Shown one piece after another: positions 10,858 through 23,623 of a DNA stretch of 26,684 nt. This stretch comes from an uncultured Spirochaetales bacterium. GTDB lineage: Bacteria > Myxococcota_A > UBA9160 > SMWR01. Both the position numbers and the translations under genes were made by a program. Positions within the stretch are counted from its first letter, which is position 1, and each line of letters opens with the position of its first letter. The stretch is from NCBI GenBank assembly GCA_964597285.1, contig CAZQYK010000404.1, forward strand, positions 1 through 26,684, given 5' to 3'. Below the pieces are notes generated by a model that searched no databases, was not told where the DNA came from, and saw nothing but the letters and a program-made list of their open reading frames with translations.

Positions 10858-12033
10858 ATGGGCTCCACACAGCAGCGACACATCGCCGTCGTCACGAACA
10901 CTGAATGGAATCTGCTCCGCTTCCGCGCCGACCTCCTGCGGGCGCTCGTCTCGAAGGGGTGGTCCGTGGCGGCGGTCAGCGATCTCTCGGAGTCCGGCAG
11001 CCAGATGCTCCGCGCCTGGGGCGTGGAGCCGATCCGCGTGTCGGTCGCGTCGGCGGGCACGAACCCGGCCCAGGACCTGCGCTACCTGAGCGCGCTGGCG
11101 GGCGTGTATCGGCGGCTGCGCCCCGATGTCGTGCACCACTTCTCGATCAAGCCGGTCGTCTGGGGATCGTTCGCGGCGCGCATTGCGCGCGTTCCGGTCG
11201 TGGTCAACGGCGTGACCGGGCTCGGCAGCGCCTACGACTCGGAGCGACGCTGGCTGGCGCGCGTGGTGCGCGGGCTGTATCGCGGAGCGCTGCGGCGCGG
11301 CACCGTCGTGCTCCAGAACGCGGAGGACCGGGCGCGGCTGCTCCGCGACATCGGGCTCGATCCGCGGCGCACCGAGGTGGTTCCCGGCTCCGGCGTCGAC
11401 ACCGACCGTCTCGCTCCGGATCCCGCGCTCCGACCCGAGCAGCGCAGCGAGTTCATCATGGTCTCGCGGATGCTCTGGGCCAAGGGGGTGCGAGAGTTCG
11501 TCGAGGCCGCGCGGCGTGTGGCTCGCGACCGGCCCGCGGCATCGTTCTCGCTCTTCGGCGGCTGCCGCGAGGACTACGGCTCGAAGAACGCCGACTTCGT
11601 GCCCCGCGAGTGGCTCGAGGCGGTGGACCGCGAGGGCGTCGTACGCTGGCACGGACGAACCGCTCCAGACGTGGTGGAGCGCCGCATGCGCGGCTGCGCC
11701 GCGCTCGTCCTTCCCTCGAGCTATCCGGAGGGCATTCCGCGGACCCTCCTCGAGGCGGCGGCGGCCGGCGCGCCGATCATCACGACCGACCGGCCCGGCT
11801 GCCGCGACGCGGTGCTTCCCGGCGTCTCCGGCCTTCTCGTGCCGCCCCGCTCGGCCGAGGCGCTCGCCGACGCGATGCGCCGCCTCCTCGACGACCCGGC
11901 GTTGCGCGCGTCGATGGGCGCACGGGGCCGTCAGCTCGCCGTCGAGCGCTTCGACAGCCGGCGGATCGTCGAGCGCCTGCTGTCGCTCTACGACGCCCCG
12001 CGCGACGCCATCGCCTCGCGCGGAGCGGTTTGA
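10858..12033 (+). CDS. Glycosyltransferase family 4 (CapM/PglA-like)
   Basis: FRADLL, PDVVHHFSIKPVVWG, NGVTGLG, GSGVD, RMLWAKGVREF, PSSYPEGIPRTLLEAAAAG, TDRPGCRDAV (EX7E). Confidence 0.92.
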   Translation: MGSTQQRHIAVVTNTEWNLLRFRADLLRALVSKGWSVAAVSDLSESGSQMLRAWGVEPIRVSVASAGTNPAQDLRYLSALAGVYRRLRPDVVHHFSIKPVVWGSFAARIARVPVVVNGVTGLGSAYDSERRWLARVVRGLYRGALRRGTVVLQNAEDRARLLRDIGLDPRRTEVVPGSGVDTDRLAPDPALRPEQRSEFIMVSRMLWAKGVREFVEAARRVARDRPAASFSLFGGCREDYGSKNADFVPREWLEAVDREGVVRWHGRTAPDVVERRMRGCAALVLPSSYPEGIPRTLLEAAAAGAPIITTDRPGCRDAVLPGVSGLLVPPRSAEALADAMRRLLDDPALRASMGARGRQLAVERFDSRRIVERLLSLYDAPRDAIASRGAV

Positions 12034-13124
12034 CCGAGGCGGATCGCCTGGGGAAGGGGTTCGCGAGGCGCTGGACGAACCGTTCCGAGCATCGCGACCA
12101 GCAGCCAGAGGGTCGAGAATCGCAGCCCCTGGTGCGTGACCCCGTAGAGGAACGACGGCACGAGGAAGGCCAGCCCGTACGCTCCGACGCGCCGCCCGAG
12201 CCCGAGCAGGAACGCTCCGAACAGCCCCGCGCCGACGACGCCGTAGCTGAAGACGAGCGTGCCGGGAGTCGAGTGGAACTCCGCGTCGTCCCAGCGGCGG
12301 AAGCGCTCGTAACCCCCCTCCCCGGCGCCGAGCACGAGGTGCTCGGGGTGCTTCCACAGGCGGTCGTAGCCGCGCGTGACGAGGTTGTCGTCCGCCTGGT
12401 CACCGAGACCCGCGATCCGCGCTCGCACCCGCTCGTAGAGGGCGGTTTCGCCCATCAGCGTCACGACGACGAGCGCGGCGAGCATCGCCGGCGCGAGCCG
12501 CTCGGGCCGGCGCACCACCGCGAGCACGAACAGCACCGCGAGCGCGATCAGCGCCGCCTTCGACAGCGACAATGCCACGAGGTAGAGCACGGCGAGCGAG
12601 AACGGGATCTGCCAGCGCAGGCCGACCGGCGCCCTCAGCGTGCAGACGAAGAAGATCGAGCCCGACAGCAGCGCCCAGTAGCCGAGCTGGTTGGGGTTGT
12701 TGAAGAACAGCATGCCGCGGTTCGCGCCCCCTCCGCCGAGCGTGAGTGCGAGCGCCAGCTGGACGAACACCGCGAGCCACGTGCTCCACATCACGACCCG
12801 AACGAATCGGTCCCGGTGGATCGAGTAGAGCCGGAACGCGAGGAAGACGAGCGCGAAGTTGTAGAGGTAGAAGAGGGGCGGAACCAGGAACTCCGGATCG
12901 GCGCGATACGTCGCCCAGGCGACGTTGACCGCGGCGGTCCAGACGGCGAACAGGCCCGCCCACAGCACGATCGGCAGCGCGCCGCGGTCGAGCGGTCCGC
13001 TCGGCCGGACCAACGCGATCGCGACCGCGAGCGTCAGGAACGCGTCCGCCACCTGGGGCAGCCCGCTCGGGAAGAGATAGAAGGGCTTCAGGACGAGATA
13101 GAGTGCGAGCAGGATCAGAGGCAT
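11988..13124 (-). CDS. Wzy-like polysaccharide polymerase / O-antigen ligase family membrane protein
   Basis: MPLILLALYLVLKPFY...; about 10 hydrophobic segments, FNNPNQLGY, LSLSKAAL, and HST..TLVFSYG after a periplasmic loop. C-terminal half of track ORF 11988..14369. Confidence 0.8.
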   Translation of the reverse strand: MPLILLALYLVLKPFYLFPSGLPQVADAFLTLAVAIALVRPSGPLDRGALPIVLWAGLFAVWTAAVNVAWATYRADPEFLVPPLFYLYNFALVFLAFRLYSIHRDRFVRVVMWSTWLAVFVQLALALTLGGGGANRGMLFFNNPNQLGYWALLSGSIFFVCTLRAPVGLRWQIPFSLAVLYLVALSLSKAALIALAVLFVLAVVRRPERLAPAMLAALVVVTLMGETALYERVRARIAGLGDQADDNLVTRGYDRLWKHPEHLVLGAGEGGYERFRRWDDAEFHSTPGTLVFSYGVVGAGLFGAFLLGLGRRVGAYGLAFLVPSFLYGVTHQGLRFSTLWLLVAMLGTVRPAPREPLPQAIRLGQTAPREAMASRGAS

Positions 13125-14470
13125 CGGAAGGCCTCGGCCGCACGCGCGCGGATCGACATTGCGTTGATCCCGGCCGAGCACACCAGATCGGCGACCGCCG
13201 CGGCCACGCCGACCCAGGCGGCGCCCAGGATCCCGTGATCGGGAATCCAGAGCGCGCTCGCCGCGAGCGCGACGACGGCGACGACCACGTGATTCACGAG
13301 GTGGGCGCGGAACCGGCGCGCGGCCGTGGTGCCGAAGTGCAGCATCGACGCGACGTAGCGGATCAGCGCTCCGAACATCACCCAGACGAAGACGTCCGCA
13401 TGCCGCCCGTAGTCGCTGGTGTAGAGGAGCGTCAGTACGGGCGCGCCCGCGACCCACGCGACGGCGAGCCCGACGACGCCGAAGAAGATCCCGATCAGCG
13501 ATACCCGCGCCAGCAGCGAGGCGAAGGCGCGCGTGTTCCCGCTCGCGTACAGCCGCGCGAGCCGGGCGACCGCGGAGTGGCCGAGCCCCTGCACGAGCTC
13601 GTTGCCGGCGGCCGCGATGTAGATCATCGCCGCGAAGTAGCCGAGCTCCTCGAGCCCAGTGCCCTGGGCCAGGAAGAGCCTCGGCGTGCTCTGCTGCAGC
13701 GAGAAGAGCGCGCCGGCGATCCCGAGCGGCAGCGTCTGGCGCGTCAGGCGCCACAGCCGCGCGCGCTGCCAGCTCGGCGACACCGAGGCGTGGGCCTCGC
13801 CCTCGCGATGCCGCAGCACGCGCCGGCCGAGCGGGATGTCGTGGACCGCGAGCACGGCGACCGACGCCAGCGCCATGCCGAGCACGCCGACCCAGAGCCG
13901 CCCGGTGGCGATCACGCCGGCCGCCAGCAGCGCCACCGACGCCACCCCGCGCAGGACCAGCGAACGCGCCACGTGGTCCATGCGTTCGTAGAGCTGGAAG
14001 CATGCGTGGAAGACCTCGCCGACCGACGCAAAGGACCGCGATGCGCCGATCAGCGCGATGACGATCGCCGTCTCGATCCCGTGGCCGAGGCTCGCTCCGA
14101 TCCCGGCGATCACGACCACCGAGGCGAGGCTCGCGAGCGAGCGGAGCCCCATGTACTCGCCGAAGGGATGCGCGCGCTCGACGTCGGTGGCCTGCGCGTG
14201 CCGCAGCCCGAGGTTCGAGAACTTGAAGACCGGCATCGTGATCGCCAGCGCGAGACCGAGCTCGCCGACCATCGCGGGCGAGCCGAGCTTCGCGAGAACG
14301 GCCAGCGTGCCCCACTGCGTCGCGATGTAGACGAGCCGACCGGCGGTGATCCACGAGAAGTTCTTCCACAGCGAGAGCGAAGCCGTCCCGCGGCCCGCGA
14401 TCCTCCGATCGCCCGGTGCCGGCAGCGCGGGCTCCCGCTCGGACGCCGTGGCGCCGGAGTGCGGATGCAC
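13115..14470 (-). CDS. Wzx flippase (polysaccharide biosynthesis / MOP family)
   Basis: GTG start after GGAG. NFSWITAGRL...LAKLGSP..VGELGLA..., GLRHAQATD, many TM helices. Overlaps the wzy start by 10 bp. Confidence 0.88.
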   Translation of the reverse strand: MHPHSGATASEREPALPAPGDRRIAGRGTASLSLWKNFSWITAGRLVYIATQWGTLAVLAKLGSPAMVGELGLALAITMPVFKFSNLGLRHAQATDVERAHPFGEYMGLRSLASLASVVVIAGIGASLGHGIETAIVIALIGASRSFASVGEVFHACFQLYERMDHVARSLVLRGVASVALLAAGVIATGRLWVGVLGMALASVAVLAVHDIPLGRRVLRHREGEAHASVSPSWQRARLWRLTRQTLPLGIAGALFSLQQSTPRLFLAQGTGLEELGYFAAMIYIAAAGNELVQGLGHSAVARLARLYASGNTRAFASLLARVSLIGIFFGVVGLAVAWVAGAPVLTLLYTSDYGRHADVFVWVMFGALIRYVASMLHFGTTAARRFRAHLVNHVVVAVVALAASALWIPDHGILGAAWVGVAAAVADLVCSAGINAMSIRARAAEAFRCL

Positions 14471-14472
14471 GA

Positions 14473-15852
14473 TCAGACTCCCGGCCGCGTCACGACCGTC
14501 TGCACGGTCTTGAGCACGACGTACGCGTCGAGGGCCAGGGAGGCGTTCTCGAGGTAGTAGAGGTCGTGGCGGAACTTCTGCGCCTGCTCCAGCTCCGAGC
14601 CGGAGTAGCCCTGCCGCACCTGCGCCCATCCCGTCAAGCCGGGAGTCGCTGAAAAGCGCGCCTCGTAGAAGGGGATCGACTTCGTCAGCCGGTCCGCGAA
14701 ATGCGCTCGGATCGGGCGCGGACCCACGAGCGACATGTCGCCGCGCAACACGTTCACGAGCTGCGGCAGCTCGTCGAGGCGCAGCTTGCGCAACACGCGC
14801 CCGACGCGCGTGATGCGCGGATCGTCCTCCGAGGCCCAGCGCGGACCGGAGAGACGCTCGGCATCCTGGACCATCGTGCGGAACTTGAGACAGACGAAGG
14901 GGCGGCGGCGCCGACCGAGCCGCTCCTGCGCGAACAGAGCCGGCCCCTCGCTCTCGAGCCGCACGGCGAGCGCGATCAGCGCCATCACCGGCGCCGCCAC
15001 CAGCAGCCCGAGCGAGGCGCCCACCACGTCGCAGGCGCGCTTCGCGCCCGGACGGAAGCGCCGCGGCGCACGGCCGCCGGGGAGGAGCGCGCGTGCGATG
15101 CGACGCGCGTCGACCGCGTGCTCGGGCACGCAGCCGGTGAGCTCCGCCTCGAGCGTCGAGAGGTCCCAGACCTCGACGCCGGCGAGGCGCAGGTCGATCA
15201 GGCGTGCCACCGCTTCGCCGGAGAGCACGAGCCCGGTGTCGATCGCGACCGCGGCGAAGCCGCCGTTGCGGAGCAGCTCCTCCGCGGCCTCGGCCTGCGC
15301 CGGCTGCGTGCCACCGGCGGGAGCGACGTCGAGGATCGGCCCGAGTGCGTACTCGCTCGACGCCTCGCCGGAGAGCGCGGCAACGAGCCCCTGGACGCGC
15401 GCGCGCGATCCGATCGCGGCGAGGCGGCGGGCCCGCCAGCTCCCGACCCACCGGCGCAGCACCGCCCGGCTCGCGAGCGAGAGGCCGAGCAGCAGCGGAA
15501 CGTGTGCGAGCAGCGCCGCGACCTCGATCCGGTCTTCGGCGAGCAGCGGCACCGACGCGATCGCCGCCGCGGACAGCGGGACGAGGCGCCGCCGGTGCCG
15601 AGCCGACGCGCCGCGAGGGGTGACGCCGTGCAGATCGAAGGCATAGAGCGCAGCGAGGTGGAGTGGGATCACCAGCGCGCTCGCGCGGGCCGCGAACGCC
15701 AGCGCTTCCTGCGCTTCGAGCTCCGCCGCGGACGCTCCGGGAAGCACACCGGCCAGCGTCCGTGCCGCGGCCAGCGCGATCGGCACCGCCAGCGCGTCGA
15801 GGGCGAGCGCGAGCGCCGCGGCGCGGCGGCGTCGGGTCCAGAAGCGGCTCAC
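14473..15852 (-). CDS. Priming polyprenyl glycosylphosphotransferase (WcaJ/EpsB-like, long form)
   Basis: GTGA overlap with the upstream stop. N-terminal TM helices, then Bac_transf motifs KRACDV, KFRTM, DPRITRVGRVLRKLRLDELPQL, GDMSLVGPRP, PGLTGWAQV. Confidence 0.93.
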   Translation of the reverse strand: MSRFWTRRRRAAALALALDALAVPIALAAARTLAGVLPGASAAELEAQEALAFAARASALVIPLHLAALYAFDLHGVTPRGASARHRRRLVPLSAAAIASVPLLAEDRIEVAALLAHVPLLLGLSLASRAVLRRWVGSWRARRLAAIGSRARVQGLVAALSGEASSEYALGPILDVAPAGGTQPAQAEAAEELLRNGGFAAVAIDTGLVLSGEAVARLIDLRLAGVEVWDLSTLEAELTGCVPEHAVDARRIARALLPGGRAPRRFRPGAKRACDVVGASLGLLVAAPVMALIALAVRLESEGPALFAQERLGRRRRPFVCLKFRTMVQDAERLSGPRWASEDDPRITRVGRVLRKLRLDELPQLVNVLRGDMSLVGPRPIRAHFADRLTKSIPFYEARFSATPGLTGWAQVRQGYSGSELEQAQKFRHDLYYLENASLALDAYVVLKTVQTVVTRPGV

Positions 15853-16883
15853 GGGTCGGGCGCGCCGACGGCCGCGGCGCCGGCCTGACTCTCTCGTACG
15901 CCGCGCTCGACGAACCAACGCACCGTGCGGTCGAGACCGTCGGGCAGCGGCGTCCGCGCTCTCCAGCCGAGGCGCCGCCGGGCCTTGGTCGTGTCCGAGT
16001 AGTTGCGGCGCACGTCGCCTACGCGCGGCCCGCGGCAGACGAGCTCGGCGCGCGGTACGCCGTAGCGCACGAGCGTCTTGCGGAGCAGCGCGACGAGCTC
16101 CCGGACGGTCGTCTCGCGTTCCGTCGCGATCTGGAACACCTCGCCGCCGACGTTCGCGGTCGTGCCCGCGGCGCGGATGGCCTCGACGAGATCGTCGACG
16201 TACACGTAGTCGCGGGTGTTTCCCCCGTCGCCGTAGATCTCGAGTGGTCGCCCCCGCAATGCGCGGCCGATGAAGCGCGCGACGACGCTGCCCTTGTGCG
16301 CCGAGCCGGGCCCGTAGACGTTGCCGAAACGCAGCGCGACCGTCTCGAGGCCGAAGCTGTGGAAGTAGGCAGAGCAGTAGCCCTCGCACGCGAGCTTGCT
16401 GGCGCCGTAGGGCGAGGCCGGCCGACACGGTACCTCCTCGTGCAGCGGGGGCTCTCGATCACCCACCGGTGCGCCGCTCGACGCGAAGACGAAGCGTCGG
16501 ACGCTGGCGAGGCGTGCCGCGTCGAGGTACGAGAGCGTCCCGAGCACGTTCACCGACAGGTCGCGCGCCGGATCGTCGACGGACTGCTGCACTCCGGTGC
16601 TCGCGGCGAGGTGGACGATCACTTCCGCGCCTTCGACCGCTCGCTGGGCGGCCGTGCGATCGCGCACGTCGCTGACGAGCAGCTGCACCCGCCCGGCGCA
16701 CCAGCGGGGCGCCGCAACCGACGCCCGCGCGTCGACGCGATCGACCTCGGACGTCGCGCCCAGGGTCGCCGCGCTTCCGACCGACAGGTCGTCGACGACG
16801 CGCACGGCGGCGCCCTCGCGCGCCAGAGCGCGCACCAGCGCCGAGCCGATGAAGCCGCATCCCCCCGTGACGAGCCAACGCAT
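15849..16883 (-). CDS. NAD-dependent nucleotide-sugar epimerase/dehydratase (extended SDR, GalE/WbpP-like)
   Basis: MRWLVTGGCGFIGS, IVHLAA, ASSGA, YGASK, LRFGNVYGP, RDYVYVDD. Start coupled by a TGATG overlap to the sqdB-like gene. Confidence 0.93.
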   Translation of the reverse strand: MRWLVTGGCGFIGSALVRALAREGAAVRVVDDLSVGSAATLGATSEVDRVDARASVAAPRWCAGRVQLLVSDVRDRTAAQRAVEGAEVIVHLAASTGVQQSVDDPARDLSVNVLGTLSYLDAARLASVRRFVFASSGAPVGDREPPLHEEVPCRPASPYGASKLACEGYCSAYFHSFGLETVALRFGNVYGPGSAHKGSVVARFIGRALRGRPLEIYGDGGNTRDYVYVDDLVEAIRAAGTTANVGGEVFQIATERETTVRELVALLRKTLVRYGVPRAELVCRGPRVGDVRRNYSDTTKARRRLGWRARTPLPDGLDRTVRWFVERGVRESQAGAAAVGAPDP

Positions 16884-18031
16884 CACGACCAGCGCACCCG
16901 CGGGTGGATCTTCTGCGTGTCGATGCGATCGGCGTAGCGACCCACCGTGCCGAGCATTCCGGTCACGGTTTCGTCGTCGATCGGGTGAGGTCGCAGGCCC
17001 AGCTCGAGCAATCCGGAATGCGCCGGGTTGTAGTAGTGGTCCTCCTTCTCCTTCCGCGGGTTCTGGATGTGCTCGATCTTGACGTCCATGCCCTGGTCGC
17101 GGCCGACCCGCGCGACGCGCTCTGCGAGCTCGTTGACCGAGAACACCTCGGTGAACTGGTTCAGGATGCGCAGTTTGCCGCGCTCGACGGGGTGGGCGAG
17201 CGCGAGCTCGACGCACTGCATCGTGTCCTTCAGGTTCAGATAGCCGCGCCTCTGATTCCCCTGCCCGTAGACAGTCAGCGGCACGCCCGACACCGCCTGG
17301 ACGAGGAAGCGGTTGACCAGCGTTCCGAAGATGTCGTCGTAGTGGAAGTTCGGCAGCAGCGCGTCCGGGAGATCCACGTCCTCGACGCACAGTCCGTACA
17401 CGGGGCCTTGCATCAGGTCGGTGACCCGGATCCCGTAGATCCGCGTGTAGAACCACAGCAGATCCGTGTCGAGCACCTTCGTCGTGTGGTACAGCGAGCC
17501 GGCCGCCCGGGGGAACAGGAAGCGGTCCTTCCGGCCGCGGTGCTCGATGTCGATCCAGCCCTCCTCGATGTCGATGTCGGGCGTCCCGTACTCTCCCATC
17601 GTTCCGAGCTTGACGATGTGACAGTCCGGCGCGTGCCGGAGCACCGACCAGATCAGGTTGAAGGTGACGTCGAGGTTGTTGCGCAACGTGAGCCTCGCCT
17701 CGTCGAAGCCGATCATCGAGTAGGGGGCCGACGGCTGCTCCGCGTAGTGCACGACTCCGTCGGGCTGGAACTCCTCGACGACGCGCGCGAGGAACGCCGG
17801 ATCTGCGCAGTCGCCGACCCGCACGTCGATGCGGTGACCGCTCAGCGCCGCGAACTGCTCGGCGCGCGCCGGCAGCGACGGCGTGGGGAACAGCGGCTCG
17901 GAACGCGTCTGGAGCGCCATCGTGCGGCGCAGGTAGTTGTCCACCGCGCACACCTCGTGCCCGGCGCGGGCGAGGTGCATCGCCGTGGGCCAGCCGAGAT
18001 AGCCGTCTCCGCCGAGGATCAGGACTCTCAT
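16883..18031 (-). CDS. sqdB: UDP-sulfoquinovose synthase (SqdB/SQD1/Agl3 family)
   Basis: MRVLILGGDGYLGWPTAMHL..., VDNYLRR, VVHYAEQPSAPYSM, HIVKLGTMGEYGTP, IEEGWI, YHTTK, TDLMQGPVYG, YDDIFGT..NRFLVQA, PLTVYGQGNQRRGYL, NQFTE, NPRKEKEDHYY. These match SQD1-family signatures along the whole 382 aa. Confidence 0.9.
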   Translation of the reverse strand: MRVLILGGDGYLGWPTAMHLARAGHEVCAVDNYLRRTMALQTRSEPLFPTPSLPARAEQFAALSGHRIDVRVGDCADPAFLARVVEEFQPDGVVHYAEQPSAPYSMIGFDEARLTLRNNLDVTFNLIWSVLRHAPDCHIVKLGTMGEYGTPDIDIEEGWIDIEHRGRKDRFLFPRAAGSLYHTTKVLDTDLLWFYTRIYGIRVTDLMQGPVYGLCVEDVDLPDALLPNFHYDDIFGTLVNRFLVQAVSGVPLTVYGQGNQRRGYLNLKDTMQCVELALAHPVERGKLRILNQFTEVFSVNELAERVARVGRDQGMDVKIEHIQNPRKEKEDHYYNPAHSGLLELGLRPHPIDDETVTGMLGTVGRYADRIDTQKIHPRVRWS

Positions 18032-19101
18032 GCGATCTCTCCCAGTTGCAGGTTCCGTCGATCCGGAGCGAGTCGCGCGGCTCGGGCCTCGTCCACCTCG
18101 AGCAGGCCGCGGTCGATCAGGAAGCGGCGGAGCTGGATCCGGCTGAGCGGCGCCTCGAGCCGCGAGTTGTACGCGCGCGCGACCGGCTGGTGTCCGTTCC
18201 GACGCAGCGCAGGAGGAACCGCGATGTAGGCGCCGATGTCGTACGCCCGCTGGCTCTCCTCCTCCGTCAGCAGCTCCTCGTAGAGCTTCTCGCCGGGGCG
18301 CGCGCCGATCTCGCGGATCTCGACGTCCGTCGGATCGAGCCCGACGCTGGGGGCGAGCTCCTCGATCATCACGTGCGCCAGGTCGACGATCGCGGCGACC
18401 GGCATCTTCGGAACGAAGACCTCGCCGCCCTCGGCGAGCGGCGCCGACTCCATCACGAGCTTCACGCTCTCGTTGAGCCCCATGATGAAGCGCGTCATCG
18501 AGCGGTCGGTGATCGTCACGGGCCCGCCGGCCTCGATCTGCTTGCGGAAGAGCGGGATCACCGACCCGCGGGAGCCCAGGACGTTTCCGAAGCGGGTCGA
18601 CGAGAAGCGGCACCCGGAGCCTCGCGTGAACTGGTTCGCCGCGCTCATCAGCCGCTCGCACATCAGCTTCGAGCTGCCCATGACGTTCGTCGGGTTCACC
18701 GCCTTGTCGGAAGAAGTCAGGCAAACCTGCCGCACCCCGTTGGCGACCGCGGCGTCGATCGCGTTCTGCGTGCCGATCAGATTGCACTGGAGCGCATCTC
18801 GCGGAGAGCGCTCGCAGATCCCGACGTGCTTCAGCGCGGCGCAATGGAAGACGATGTCGACGTCCCGGAAGCGCTGGACGAGCGTGTCGCGGTCGCGGAC
18901 GTCGGCGAGGAAGAGATCGACCGGATCGTCGGCATGTGCTTCGTCGAGGAAGAACAGCTCGCTCTCGTTGTTGTCGAGACCGATCACGCGGACGTCGGAG
19001 ATGCGCACGAGCTGGCTCAGGAGCTCGTGACCGACCGTTCCGGTCACGCCGGTGATCAGGATCGTCTTGCCGGAGAAGTGCGGGTGCGGCAGATGGCTCA
19101 T
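18028..19101 (-). CDS. UDP-N-acetylhexosamine 4,6-dehydratase (Polysacc_synt_2; CapD/CapE/PglF catalytic-domain-like, soluble)
   Basis: ILITGVTGTVG, VFHCAALKHV..CE, SSDKAVNPTNVMGSSK, RFGNVLGSRGSVIPLF, MTRFIM, IGARPGEKLYEEL. ATGA overlaps at both ends. Confidence 0.92.
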   Translation of the reverse strand: MSHLPHPHFSGKTILITGVTGTVGHELLSQLVRISDVRVIGLDNNESELFFLDEAHADDPVDLFLADVRDRDTLVQRFRDVDIVFHCAALKHVGICERSPRDALQCNLIGTQNAIDAAVANGVRQVCLTSSDKAVNPTNVMGSSKLMCERLMSAANQFTRGSGCRFSSTRFGNVLGSRGSVIPLFRKQIEAGGPVTITDRSMTRFIMGLNESVKLVMESAPLAEGGEVFVPKMPVAAIVDLAHVMIEELAPSVGLDPTDVEIREIGARPGEKLYEELLTEEESQRAYDIGAYIAVPPALRRNGHQPVARAYNSRLEAPLSRIQLRRFLIDRGLLEVDEARAARLAPDRRNLQLGEIA

Positions 19102-21320
19102 GCCGAGGGTCCCATCGAGTCCGGCTCGCGCTGGACCGCGTCGAGATCGTCGGGGTCGTAGTCGTCCGCGTCGCGAGTCCGCCCGCGGTTGACGACGGTT
19201 CCCAGCACGGTCGCGTTGACGCGAACGAGTCGACGGTGGGCCTTGAACACGATCGGACGCGGAGCGCGCCGTGGATCGACGACGACGATCACGCCGTCGA
19301 CGAGCGTCGACAGCACCACCGCGTCGCTGACCGGAATCAGCGGCGGCGAATCGATCAGGACGTAGGCGTAGTGCTGGCGGAGATAGCCGAGGATCTGCTT
19401 CATGCGGTCGGATCCGAGCAGCTCGGTCGGCTTCGAAGCCGGCATGCCGCTCGGCAGGAAGTCGATCGTCGCGTCCTGGATCTCGAGCTTGTGGAGCTGC
19501 GGAAGCGTGCCCGACAGCGCCTCGCTGAGGCCGGGAGTCGGAGGCAGTCGCAGCAGGCGCTGACAGCTGGAGCGCCGCAGATCCGCGTCGATCACCAACA
19601 CCGGCTCGCCGAGGTGTGCGAAGAGCGCGGCAGTATTCAGCGTCGTGGTCGTCTTGCCCTCGCCGTGAACCGAGCTCGTGAACAGGATCACGCGTTGAGT
19701 CTCGTCCGCCTGCGCCAGCAGCACGCCGGTGCGGATCGCGCGGTAGGCCTCGCTCGCCGCCGAGAAGGGATCGCGCGAGACCGCGAGCGCTCGACTCGGA
19801 GGATCCCAGTTGCGCCCGACCATCGCGCCGAGCAGCCGGCGGGTTCGCGACGGAAGCCGGGGGCGGCTGCCGCGGCCCAGGCGCGCGAAGTCCGGCACCA
19901 CCCCGAGCGCGGGAATGCCGAGGTAGCGCTCGAGCTCCTCGGGCGTGCGAACCGTGTTGTCGAGGTATTCGACGGCGAAGGCGATTCCCGACCCGAACGT
20001 GAGACCGAGCGCCAGCGCCAGCGCCAGGCTCAGCGCCGTGCGCGGGTGCGAAGGCGCCTCGGGCGTGAAGGCCTCGTCGATCACCGTCACGTTCGAGGCC
20101 TGCACGTCGGAGGCGACGCCGAGCGCGAGCATGCGCTGGCGGACCTCCTCGTAGAGCTGCCGATTCGCGTCGACCTCTCGCTCGAGTACCGCGTATTGGA
20201 CGCCCTCGTCCTTGAGCGCGAGGACGCGATCCTTCTGCTCGTCGAACCGTGCGCGCAGCACGTCCTCGTGCTGGCGAGCCTCCTCGAAGGAGGAGCGCGT
20301 CGACGCCACGAGCGCGGAGATCTCGTGTTGCAGGCGTCCGCGCAGGCGCTGGATCTTCGCCTCCTGATCGCGCGGCCACAGAGGGTTGCCGTCGCGCTCC
20401 AGGTTCGCGGTGCGCGCCGCGAAGTCGGCCTCGAGCATCGCGAGGTGCTCCTTGAGGCTCGCGACCAGCGGGCTCGACACGACCGCGGGGATCGACTCCG
20501 GATCGCGCGAGCTGCCGACCGTCGCCACGGACTCGCGCGCGATGCGCTCCGCCTCGGCTTCGGCCAGCTTCTGGTTCAGCGCCACGAGATGCTCGACCAG
20601 GACGTTCTCGCGGTCGTCGAGCGAGAGGATGCCGTGCTCGCGCCGGTACGCGTTGAGCTCGCGCTCGGACTCGTCGACCCGTTTCGCGAGCCGCTCGAGA
20701 TTGCGAGCCAGGAAATCGCGCGAGTCCTCGAGCGACTGGCGGCGCAGTTCGAGCGCCCGGATCATGTACTCCTGCGCGTGGGTGGCGACGACGCGCGCCG
20801 ACAGCTCGGGGTCGGGGCTCGTGAACGTGACCCGGACCAGCCGGCTCTCCGGATAGGGCTCGACGCCGAGCCAGTCCTCTGCGTACTCGTCCAGGAAGTC
20901 GGCCGAGATCGGCCGCTTCGCTTCCGCGACCTCCGGCTCCGAACTCGTCCAGCCGCCGAGATGCTCGCCGAGCGCCGCGCGGAACGCGTCCGAGCGGGTG
21001 TGGAACTGGGAGGGCGCGAGACCCTCGCGCTCTACCACGGCGCGCGCCAGGCTGCGGCTGCGCAGGATGTCGTACTGCGTCATGTAGTAGTCCCGCGCCT
21101 CGTCCGACGAGAGGTCGAGCGCGCGGGCGGACTCCAGCTGCTCTTCGGGCTCCGGCTCGATCAGCAGCACGACCTCGGCGGTATAGAGGGGCGTGGCGAG
21201 TGACACGTAGAGCCCCACCACTCCGACGCACGCCGCGGCGACGAGCAGGATCAGCCCTCGACGCTCCCTCAGGATCCTCCCGAACGCCCGGAGATCGGGA
21301 CCGAACTCGTAGTCCTGCAC
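19098..21320 (-). CDS. wzc: Wzc polysaccharide co-polymerase / BY-kinase (GumC/Wzc family)
   Basis: GTG start after GGAGG. Two TM segments flank a coiled-coil periplasmic domain; EAYRAIRT, Walker A SSVHGEGKT, A' IDADLRR, Walker B LIDSPP. Confidence 0.92.
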   Translation of the reverse strand: MQDYEFGPDLRAFGRILRERRGLILLVAAACVGVVGLYVSLATPLYTAEVVLLIEPEPEEQLESARALDLSSDEARDYYMTQYDILRSRSLARAVVEREGLAPSQFHTRSDAFRAALGEHLGGWTSSEPEVAEAKRPISADFLDEYAEDWLGVEPYPESRLVRVTFTSPDPELSARVVATHAQEYMIRALELRRQSLEDSRDFLARNLERLAKRVDESERELNAYRREHGILSLDDRENVLVEHLVALNQKLAEAEAERIARESVATVGSSRDPESIPAVVSSPLVASLKEHLAMLEADFAARTANLERDGNPLWPRDQEAKIQRLRGRLQHEISALVASTRSSFEEARQHEDVLRARFDEQKDRVLALKDEGVQYAVLEREVDANRQLYEEVRQRMLALGVASDVQASNVTVIDEAFTPEAPSHPRTALSLALALALGLTFGSGIAFAVEYLDNTVRTPEELERYLGIPALGVVPDFARLGRGSRPRLPSRTRRLLGAMVGRNWDPPSRALAVSRDPFSAASEAYRAIRTGVLLAQADETQRVILFTSSVHGEGKTTTTLNTAALFAHLGEPVLVIDADLRRSSCQRLLRLPPTPGLSEALSGTLPQLHKLEIQDATIDFLPSGMPASKPTELLGSDRMKQILGYLRQHYAYVLIDSPPLIPVSDAVVLSTLVDGVIVVVDPRRAPRPIVFKAHRRLVRVNATVLGTVVNRGRTRDADDYDPDDLDAVQREPDSMGPSA

Positions 21321-22418: not shown

Positions 22419-23623
22419 ACGCGCCGCAGGCCACGGCCTGGACGCAACCCCCGGGGGCCGAACGCCCGATCCGCGTTCTGCACGTCCTGAACGCCTTGAA
22501 TCCCGGCGGCGTGCAGTCGGGACTGCTCCAGACGTTCCCGTTCCTCGACCGCGAGCGCTTCCGCATCGATCTGATGACTGGAAGCCCCCATCCGGACCGC
22601 CGCTTCCAGGCCGCATTCGAGCGGATCGGCGTACACGCGGTCCACGCGAGATACCGCGAGCGTCCCCTCTCGTTCTTCGGCGACTTCGCGCGGCTGCTCC
22701 GCGAGCGCGGCCCCTTCGACGTCGTCCACAGCCACATGCGGCACTACAGCGGCGTCGTGATGCGCTGGGCAGCTCTGTGCGGCGTCCCGCACCGGATCGC
22801 GCACGCCCACAACGACCTGAGCGTCTGGATCGCGGAAGCGGGCCTTCGCGAACGCGTCGAGTTCGCACTCGCCCGACGCTGGGTCCGGCGACACGCCACC
22901 GCGTGGCTCGCCGTGAGCCGCGAAGCGGGCCGCAGCCTCTTCGGCGCCGACTGCGAACGCGATCCCCGTTGGTGCCTGGCCCCGAGCGGGATCGATCTGG
23001 AGCCCTTCGAGCCGACGTGGGACCGCGCCGCGGTTCGGGCGGATCTCGACATCGACGACGCGGCGCTGGTCGTGGGCCACGTGGGCCGATTCCACCCGCA
23101 GAAGAACCACCGCTTCCTGATCGAAGTCTTCGCAGAGGTTCGCAGGCGAGCTCCGAAGGCTCGGCTCGTCCTGGTGGGTGAGGGCGAGGCCGAGTCCGAG
23201 GCGAGGCGGCGCGCCGACGAGCTCGGCGTCGCCGACGCGGTCTCGTTCCTCGGCGTCCGCTACGACGTCCCGCGCCTGATGCAGGGCGCATTCGACGTGT
23301 TCGTGCTTCCGTCCCGCTTCGAGGGCCTTCCGCGCACCGTGATCGAGGCCCAGGCATGCGCGCTGCCGTGCGTGATCTCGAACGGCGTCACGCGCGAGGC
23401 CGACGCGCTGCCGGCGCTGGTGACCCGGCTCGGACTGGGCGACCCGCCGGATCGCTGGGCGCGCGAGGTGATCGCCGCGGCGGCGCGCCCGCGGCCGATC
23501 GAGCGCTGCGCGGCACTCGCCGAGATCCGCCGCATGCCGCTCGAAGCCCACCAGATCGCGGCCACGCTCGAGCGAATCTACTCGGCGTGTGAAGGCGCGC
23601 GCGCCGGGCCGGATCCCGGCTAG
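22415..23623 (+). CDS. Glycosyltransferase family 4 (CapH/EpsF-like)
   Basis: TTGA overlap with the kinase stop. RVLHVLNALNPGG, DVVHSH, IAHAHN, GHVGRFHPQKNHRFL, FLGVRYDV, PSRFEGLPRTVIEAQACALP. Confidence 0.9.
   Translation: MNAPQATAWTQPPGAERPIRVLHVLNALNPGGVQSGLLQTFPFLDRERFRIDLMTGSPHPDRRFQAAFERIGVHAVHARYRERPLSFFGDFARLLRERGPFDVVHSHMRHYSGVVMRWAALCGVPHRIAHAHNDLSVWIAEAGLRERVEFALARRWVRRHATAWLAVSREAGRSLFGADCERDPRWCLAPSGIDLEPFEPTWDRAAVRADLDIDDAALVVGHVGRFHPQKNHRFLIEVFAEVRRRAPKARLVLVGEGEAESEARRRADELGVADAVSFLGVRYDVPRLMQGAFDVFVLPSRFEGLPRTVIEAQACALPCVISNGVTREADALPALVTRLGLGDPPDRWAREVIAAAARPRPIERCAALAEIRRMPLEAHQIAATLERIYSACEGARAGPDPG

What the first reader, a model, noticed from the sequence alone, without database searches (positions are those of the whole stretch)
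15849..18031. sqdB coupled to a GalE-like SDR: possible route to UDP-sulfofucose
Seen: the epimerase ATG overlaps the sqdB stop (TGATG) and the protein keeps the GxxGxxG and YxxxK motifs. Known: GalE-like enzymes invert C4 of UDP-sugars, and 6-deoxy-6-sulfo-galactose (sulfofucose) has been reported in an archaeal (Thermoplasma) surface glycan; I am not aware of an established biosynthetic enzyme. Inference: this SDR may be a UDP-sulfoquinovose 4-epimerase.
Basis: inference. Interest (0 to 1): 0.55.

Follow-up and report, generated by a model that had tools for sequence, protein, structure and literature searches.

The report
Candidate sulfo-sugar C4-epimerase in three-gene cassette
This gene belongs to an uncharacterised enzyme subfamily that travels with sulfoquinovose-synthase genes across bacteria and archaea and probably flips one carbon of a sulfonated sugar, a step no known enzyme performs, although here the sugar is more likely an N-acetylated form than plain sulfofucose.

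Summary
Observation confirmed: sqdB-like (18031-16883) and SDR (16883-15849) overlap by TGATG and both motifs are intact, but most junctions in this operon overlap.

It lies beside this SqdB clade in 66/71 loci, against 0/79 for other SqdB clades. The scan has reported that pairing several times on other DNA.

Added here: the SDR is its own subfamily with epimerase-type catalytic residues and an invariant Lys197 in the loop that binds the anion in uronate epimerases. It co-occurs with SqdB of several clades (20/21 Actinomycetota genomes against 26% background), including canonical SqdB in Rubrobacter xylanophilus.

Best reading (0.45): UDP-GlcNAc to 5,6-ene to UDP-6-sulfo-QuiNAc, then C4 inversion to UDP-6-sulfo-FucNAc for a Wzy-type polysaccharide. 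Orthologues beside canonical SqdB are good UDP-sulfofucose candidates.

Against: a complete genome the size of Thermoplasma acidophilum has sqdB but no member of this subfamily, so it probably does not explain the one known prokaryotic sulfofucose. All chemistry is inferred; nothing was assayed.

The parts
15849..16883 (-). Extended SDR (P0002, 344 aa), candidate UDP-6-sulfo-sugar 4-epimerase; GxxGxxG, Asp31, Ser136, Tyr159, Lys163, Asn188, Asn294
16293..16298 (-). His196-Lys197 codons in the substrate loop; Lys197 invariant in the subfamily, proposed sulfonate contact (inferred)
   Evidence: K197 in 120/120 homologues and 80/80 SDR-anchored loci; loop is colinear with the Arg185 loop of B. 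cereus UGAepi (PMC12338863)
16883..18031 (-). SqdB/SQD1-like protein (P0001, 382 aa) of a distinct clade (motifs YHTTKVLDTDL, LMQGPVYG); keeps SQD1 Thr145, Tyr182, His183, Lys186; Arg101 replaced by Pro
18028..19101 (-).
   Evidence: coupling
19098..21320 (-). Wzc-like chain-length regulator / tyrosine kinase, first gene of the operon (start codon inferred)
14473..15852 (-). Polyprenyl glycosylphosphotransferase (WcaJ/EpsB type), priming enzyme
   Evidence: TIGR03025 312.4 bits over cut-off 295.55
13115..14369 (-). Wzx-type flippase (start uncertain)
   Evidence: PF01943 28.3 bits, cut-off 28.2, on the frame extended to 14431
11988..13124 (-). Probable Wzy polymerase
   Evidence: Weak Wzy_C hit, E 0.0011, below cut-off; homologues in L029 and L066 in the same context
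10858..12033 (+). GT4 glycosyltransferase, convergent with wzy
22460..23623 (+). Second GT4 glycosyltransferase on the divergent unit (start not fixed)

Best explanation
Three coupled genes build a C6-sulfonated amino-sugar nucleotide for a Wzx/Wzy polysaccharide. (1) The Pen/CapD-like enzyme dehydrates UDP-GlcNAc, probably to the 5,6-ene exo-glycal as Pen does. (2) The SqdB-like enzyme oxidises C4, adds sulfite at C6 and reduces C4 again, giving UDP-6-sulfo-QuiNAc. (3) The SDR of this finding, with tightly bound NAD+, inverts C4 to give UDP-6-sulfo-FucNAc, with Lys197 holding the sulfonate. The same SDR subfamily beside a canonical SqdB (for example R. xylanophilus) would make UDP-sulfofucose. 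Shown: the genes, motifs, clades and co-occurrence. Inferred: all three reactions, the substrates and the role of Lys197. Because SqdB chemistry passes through a 4-keto state, a useful C4 inversion must come after step 2.
For: SDR type: top sequence and fold matches are C4-epimerases (4ZRM, 7YS8, 6WJB, WbpP, WbgU). Ser136 is followed by Gly-Ala, not the Asp-Glu or Asp-Lys of dehydratases (PMC8987622 Table 1). The gatekeeper position holds Asn294, not a bulky Tyr (PMC3792076). Subfamily: one clade of 92 rows, SH-aLRT 91, quick tree; K197 invariant. Coupling with sqdB: 22/29 SDR-anchored metagenome loci with at least 2.5 kb on both sides; 20/21 Actinomycetota genomes against 66/251 background, 12 of them within 7 kb; partners come from at least five SqdB types. 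Dehydratase coupling: 66/71 against 0/79; reverse test 7/7 against 0/16; profile best hit is Pen, 373.7 bits against 290.2 for the next. SqdB-type enzymes make the 5,6-ene without sulfite (PMC4388408). 6-sulfo-QuiN exists in nature in Haloarcula hispanica (PMC9943897). Two loci carry this clade and a canonical sqdB together (L014, L227), which suggests different products.
Against: No activity data. The dehydratase has M-x3-K like PglF and CapE, not the Y-x3-K of Pen, so a 4-keto-6-deoxy product is possible. The SqdB-like protein lacks Arg101, which is essential in Agl3 (PMC4388408), and misses the family cut-off. Lys197 lies two residues after the Arg185-equivalent position, and no coordinates were available to show where it points. 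The SDR is optional (27/71 clade loci). Many co-occurring genomes are probably kin, so counts overstate independence. The T. acidophilum-sized genome lacks the subfamily. I found no report of 6-sulfo-FucNAc in the papers searched.
Confidence: 0.45

Rival explanations
1. One reading: the SqdB-like enzyme here uses UDP-glucose and makes UDP-sulfoquinovose, the SDR turns it into UDP-sulfofucose, and the dehydratase serves another sugar of the repeat unit.
For: Gapless alignment to SQD1 with Thr145, Tyr182, His183, Lys186 kept. The SDR subfamily also sits near canonical Arg101 SqdB with no short dehydratase nearby.
Against: An independent dehydratase would not be locked to this one SqdB clade in both directions (66/71 against 0/79; 7/7 against 0/16). 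All solved relatives named for the dehydratase at the top are UDP-GlcNAc enzymes. SDR residue 139 is Pro in 61/67 loci with this clade and 0/7 with Arg/His-type SqdB (few independent lineages), a hint of different substrates.
Confidence: 0.15
2. No sulfonate: the cassette makes an ordinary 6-deoxy-HexNAc. The dehydratase gives a 4-keto-6-deoxy or 5,6-ene sugar, the SqdB-like protein is repurposed as a Pal-like or reducing partner, and the SDR reduces or epimerises the product to QuiNAc or FucNAc.
For: M-x3-K and SDK motifs fit 4,6-dehydratases of the PglF type (PMC8987622). Pen works with a second SDR, Pal (PMC8987622 ref. 117). The clade has changed several SQD1 positions. Genomes with the SDR and canonical sqdB also hold a long CapD/PglF elsewhere.
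Against: It does not explain why the SDR follows SqdB of several clades, including canonical ones without the short dehydratase. Pal is a weaker match to the SDR than several 4-epimerases. Invariant Asp31 fits NAD(H) use rather than an NADPH reductase (general SDR knowledge).
Confidence: 0.2
3. The SDR is an ordinary UDP-Glc, UDP-GlcNAc or uronate 4-epimerase that hitchhikes in glycan loci.
For: Closest characterised relatives act on UDP-Glc or UDP-GlcNAc. The small residues after the catalytic Ser are shared with T. maritima GalE. Some members have no sqdB within 4 kb (29/80 loci, many on short contigs), and 5/14 Thermoplasmata genomes with it showed no sqdB.
Against: Only 35-39% identity to those enzymes, a shorter loop with an invariant Lys, and genome-level co-occurrence with sqdB far above background (20/21 against 66/251). 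Other SDRs of the same genome fall outside the clade.
Confidence: 0.15

Closest known systems
Broad-specificity UDP-hexose 4-epimerases: T. maritima GalE (4ZRM), M. tuberculosis Rv3634c (7YS8), P. protegens UDP-GlcNAc C4-epimerase (6WJB), WbpP (1SB8)
   Same: Extended SDR fold (TM-score 0.81-0.86 by query), GxxGxxG, Ser/Tyr/Lys triad, small gatekeeper, no dehydratase acid/base pair.
   Different: About 28-38% identity; substrate loop two to three residues shorter with invariant Lys197; Asn at the gatekeeper; below the galE cut-off (142.2 against 262.3); tied to sqdB genes.
UDP-glucuronic acid 4-epimerase of Bacillus cereus (6ZL6)
   Same: C4 epimerase of a C6-anionic sugar; loop of the same length, whose Arg185 alone holds the anion of the galacto-configured product (PMC12338863).
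   Different: 27% identity; the Arg185 position is Gly/Ser/Thr/Ala here and the basic residues are His196 and Lys197; the Thr-Ser-Ser carboxylate network is Ser-Gly-Ala.
UDP-sulfoquinovose synthases SQD1, SqdB, Agl3 (EC 3.13.1.1)
   Same: Gapless alignment to SQD1; Thr145, Tyr182, His183, Lys186 kept.
   Different: Arg101 is Pro; several clade-specific changes; below the NF041015 cut-off; paired with a separate dehydratase; sits in a Wzy locus, not a sulfolipid operon.
Pen/Pal of Bacillus thuringiensis and TunA/TunF (UDP-GlcNAc 5,6-ene pathways)
   Same: The upstream gene's best solved relative is Pen; a two-enzyme relay through an exo-glycal is precedented (PMC8987622).
   Different: M-x3-K instead of Y-x3-K; the partner is SqdB-like, not Pal.

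Membership tests
Extended SDR, nucleotide-sugar C4-epimerase type | Rossmann GxxGxxG and [ST]-xn-Y-x3-K triad | tested here: met
   GGCGFIG, Ser136, Tyr159, Lys163; Ser136, Tyr159 and Lys163 invariant in 120 homologues
Extended SDR, nucleotide-sugar C4-epimerase type | No acid/base pair after the catalytic Ser/Thr | tested here: met
   Ser136-Gly137-Ala138 against [ST]DE or [ST]DK in dehydratases (PMC8987622)
Extended SDR, nucleotide-sugar C4-epimerase type | Demonstrated C4 epimerisation | not testable with these tools
   Needs an assay
GalE equivalog (TIGR01179) | Score over the curated cut-off | tested here: not met
   142.2 against 262.3 bits
UDP-glucuronate 4-epimerase | Arg185 and Thr-Ser-Ser carboxylate network | tested here: not met
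   Ala195 at the Arg185 position; Ser-Gly-Ala
dTDP/UDP-glucose 4,6-dehydratase (TIGR01181) | [ST]DE motif and cut-off score | tested here: not met
   175.2 against 365.1 bits; motif absent
UDP-sulfoquinovose synthase (NF041015, SQD1/SqdB/Agl3) for 18031-16883 | Score over the curated cut-off of 575 | tested here: not met
   449.8 bits. The cut-off is strict: alphaproteobacterial Arg101 SqdB also miss it
UDP-sulfoquinovose synthase (NF041015, SQD1/SqdB/Agl3) for 18031-16883 | Thr145, Tyr182, His183, Lys186 of SQD1 | tested here: met
   TMGEYG and YHTTK
UDP-sulfoquinovose synthase (NF041015, SQD1/SqdB/Agl3) for 18031-16883 | Arg101 (R101A inactive in Agl3) | tested here: not met
   Pro100. Pro is also common in other uncharacterised clades without a dehydratase, so it does not by itself name the substrate
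UDP-sulfoquinovose synthase (NF041015, SQD1/SqdB/Agl3) for 18031-16883 | Sulfite addition to a UDP-sugar | not testable with these tools
   Needs an assay
Pen-type UDP-GlcNAc 5,6-dehydratase for 19101-18028 | Closest solved relative and [ST]DK motif | tested here: met
   6BWC best by 59 bits (single) and 83 bits (profile); SSDK in 119/120
Pen-type UDP-GlcNAc 5,6-dehydratase for 19101-18028 | Catalytic Y-x3-K | tested here: not met
   M-x3-K, invariant in the family
Wzx/Wzy-dependent polysaccharide locus | Priming transferase, Wzx, Wzy, Wzc and glycosyltransferases together | tested here: met
   the Wzy hit is weak and no OPX export gene was identified in the window

The most novel reading that the evidence does not exclude
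The SDR founds a dedicated family of UDP-6-sulfo-sugar 4-epimerases, the first enzymes for galacto-configured sulfosugars. With canonical SqdB it makes UDP-sulfofucose; with the dehydratase-coupled SqdB clade it makes an undescribed sugar, 6-sulfo-FucNAc, for bacterial surface polysaccharides in many phyla.
Probability: 0.4. Interest if true: 0.75.

Novelty: new variant of a known kind. Interest (0 to 1): 0.58.

Why it matters
A 2025 paper that described sulfofucose catabolism states that no biosynthetic pathway was known (PMC12421959). This analysis names a specific, widespread enzyme subfamily and cultured test strains: the pair in Rubrobacter xylanophilus DSM 9941 and the full trio in Rhodothalassium salexigens DSM 2132. 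If right, bacteria put C-sulfonated amino sugars into surface polysaccharides, which would be a new source term in the organosulfur cycle and could explain why soil bacteria can eat sulfofucose. Thousands of proteins now labelled UDP-glucose 4-epimerase would need a new name.

Tried and rejected
Translational overlap as evidence of a special link: rejected, most junctions overlap.

Arg101-to-Pro as a marker of N-acetyl substrate: rejected as diagnostic. Pro occurs in many SqdB clades with no dehydratase nearby.

Thermoplasma link: tested and not supported. Thermoplasmata genomes with Arg101-type sqdB had no subfamily member (0/28); the best SDR in the 1,564,906-bp genome scored 157 bits against 300-580 for members, lacks Lys197, and no SDR lies within 9 kb of its sqdB.

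SDRs next to Arg101 sqdB in Chloroflexota (L141, L148, L152 and others) are a separate clade without Lys197.

A 4-aminotransferase as the dehydratase's partner: DegT in only 15/80 loci.

The careful SDR tree did not finish; the quick tree was used. No complex prediction was run because no binding is claimed. The SQD1 structure paper and the Pen/Pal papers were not held. A search for 'sulfoquinovosamin' found no paper. Loci from three unpublished genomes (G475, G356, G403) were left out of all analyses; they count only in the 66/251 background tally (63/248 without them).
Full report
Observation. The two genes are real, intact and on the minus strand: an SqdB-like gene at 18031-16883 and an extended SDR at 16883-15849, overlapping by TGATG. 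The SDR has GGCGFIG, Ser136 and Tyr159-x3-Lys163. The overlap is not special, since wzc/dehydratase, dehydratase/sqdB, SDR/wcaJ and wzx/wzy overlap as well. The genome holds one sqdB-like gene.

Context. The operon reads wzc, a short Polysacc_synt_2 dehydratase, sqdB-like, SDR, priming glycosylphosphotransferase, wzx, probable wzy, with a GT4 on each flank. This is a Wzx/Wzy polysaccharide locus, not a sulfolipid operon. The genome has a PAPS-reductase-family match elsewhere; that family also covers other enzymes, so it is only a hint of sulfite supply.

The SqdB-like protein. It aligns to SQD1 without gaps (414.8 bits) and keeps Thr145, Tyr182, His183 and Lys186, but scores under the NF041015 cut-off and has Pro at Arg101, a residue needed in Agl3 (PMC4388408). 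It belongs to one well-supported clade (29 rows, SH-aLRT 100, quick tree) spread over many phyla at about 60-72% identity. Pro101 alone is not diagnostic, because many other clades have it. What marks this clade is its neighbour: the dehydratase lies within 1.2 kb in 66 of 71 loci with full flanks and in 0 of 79 loci of other clades. In the reverse test, the 7 closest dehydratase homologues in a 300-genome class sample were all beside this clade and the 16 more distant ones never were. The dehydratase is closest to Pen, a UDP-GlcNAc 5,6-dehydratase (PMC8987622), though it has M-x3-K rather than Pen's Tyr. Earlier reports of this scan reached the same pairing on other DNA; I had tested it before looking, and their agreement is not independent evidence.

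The SDR. Sequence, profile and fold searches put C4-epimerases first. Ser136 is followed by Gly-Ala, so the dehydratase acid/base pair is absent. It misses the galE cut-off. Its homologues form a clade apart from the other SDRs of this genome. Lys197 is invariant in 120 homologues and 80 loci, His196 and Asn294 nearly so. The loop that carries Lys197 has the same length as the loop of B. cereus UDP-glucuronate 4-epimerase whose Arg185 binds the anion of the galacto product (PMC12338863). Lys197 sits two residues later. A sulfonate reaches one atom further from the ring than a carboxylate, which may fit, but this is inference.

Does the SDR track sqdB? Yes. Starting from the SDR, 22 of 29 metagenome loci with wide flanks hold an sqdB-like gene. 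In one Actinomycetota sample, 20 of 21 genomes with the subfamily have sqdB against 66 of 251 overall, and 12 have it within 7 kb. Many of these are probably kin, so the nominal p value overstates. More telling is that the partner changes: this clade, SQD1-like Arg101 (R. xylanophilus, SDR 62% identical, 4.7 kb from sqdB), alphaproteobacterial-type Arg101, the IMQGVV clade and an archaeal Pro clade. In Thermoplasmata all 9 genomes with that archaeal clade carry the SDR, 5 more carry the SDR with no sqdB found, and 28 other sqdB genomes lack it.

The Thermoplasma test. A single-contig genome of 1,564,906 bases, which matches T. acidophilum as I recall its length, has a canonical Arg101 sqdB with no SDR within 9 kb. 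Its best SDR scores 157 bits and lacks Lys197. So the one known prokaryotic sulfofucose is probably made some other way.

Mechanism. SqdB chemistry runs through C4 oxidation, dehydration, sulfite addition and reduction, and yields the 5,6-ene when sulfite is absent (PMC4388408). A Pen-like partner could supply the GlcNAc 5,6-ene, leaving the SqdB-like enzyme to add sulfite and give UDP-6-sulfo-QuiNAc. 6-sulfo-QuiN is known from H. hispanica (PMC9943897). Since C4 is reset in that step, an epimerase matters only afterwards, giving UDP-6-sulfo-FucNAc. The SDR is present in 27 of 71 clade loci, as expected for an optional last step. I put this at 0.45, the plain sulfofucose route here at 0.15, a non-sulfonated deoxy sugar at 0.2 and an ordinary epimerase at 0.15. 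The broader claim that the SDR epimerises some 6-sulfo UDP-sugar is therefore about 0.6.

Verdict. Observation confirmed, interpretation partly supported. It works like a GalE-type epimerase but is not a GalE equivalog. It is best filed as a new variant of a known kind. No biosynthetic route to sulfofucose was known in 2025 (PMC12421959), and cultured strains now offer a direct test. Interest 0.58.

Noticed in passing
P0114, P0120, P0124, P0147 (representatives): SqdB-like domains fused to a class-V aminotransferase (PLP) domain. L246 also has the SDR beside a gene that looks similar. Could be a sulfur-supplying or amino-sugar step.
   Followed up: no
P0011, P0015, P0096, P0109: Several SqdB homologues are interrupted by inteins or LAGLIDADG domains.
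   Followed up: no
L014:5988-10306 and L227: Dehydratase, this SqdB clade, the SDR and a canonical alphaproteobacterial-type sqdB lie in one locus, suggesting two different sulfosugars.
   Followed up: partly
L091:6001-9202 (Haladaptatus plasmid): Haloarchaeal Pro-type sqdB is followed by two SDRs, one with Ser-Cys-Asn after the catalytic strand, reminiscent of TunA's Cys. A related SDR group lies upstream of the dehydratase in several Chloroflexota loci.
   Followed up: no
L141, L148, L152, L155, L158, L163, L168: A second, separate SDR clade without Lys197 sits beside Arg101 sqdB in Chloroflexota; another candidate UDP-sulfoquinovose epimerase.
   Followed up: partly
window:21360-21375 (-): A sigma-54-like -24/-12 element lies upstream of wzc, followed by GGAGG and a GTG at 21320; lead from note e1-5161674.
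   Followed up: partly
window:21594-22418 (+): P-loop protein with only weak kinase hits (AAA_33, APS kinase below cut-off) ahead of the second GT4; function open.
   Followed up: partly
window:8961-10853 (+): Probable secreted right-handed beta-helix protein upstream of a GT4, weak lyase-like hits; may modify or cut the polymer.
   Followed up: no
window:23859-26434 (-): Fatty-acid-hydroxylase-family gene, TetR regulator and a possible ferritin-like protein outside the glycan locus.
   Followed up: no
SDR residue 139 across loci: Pro in 61/67 loci with this SqdB clade, Ala or Thr in 7/7 with Arg/His-type SqdB; may mark substrate, may be ancestry.
   Followed up: partly
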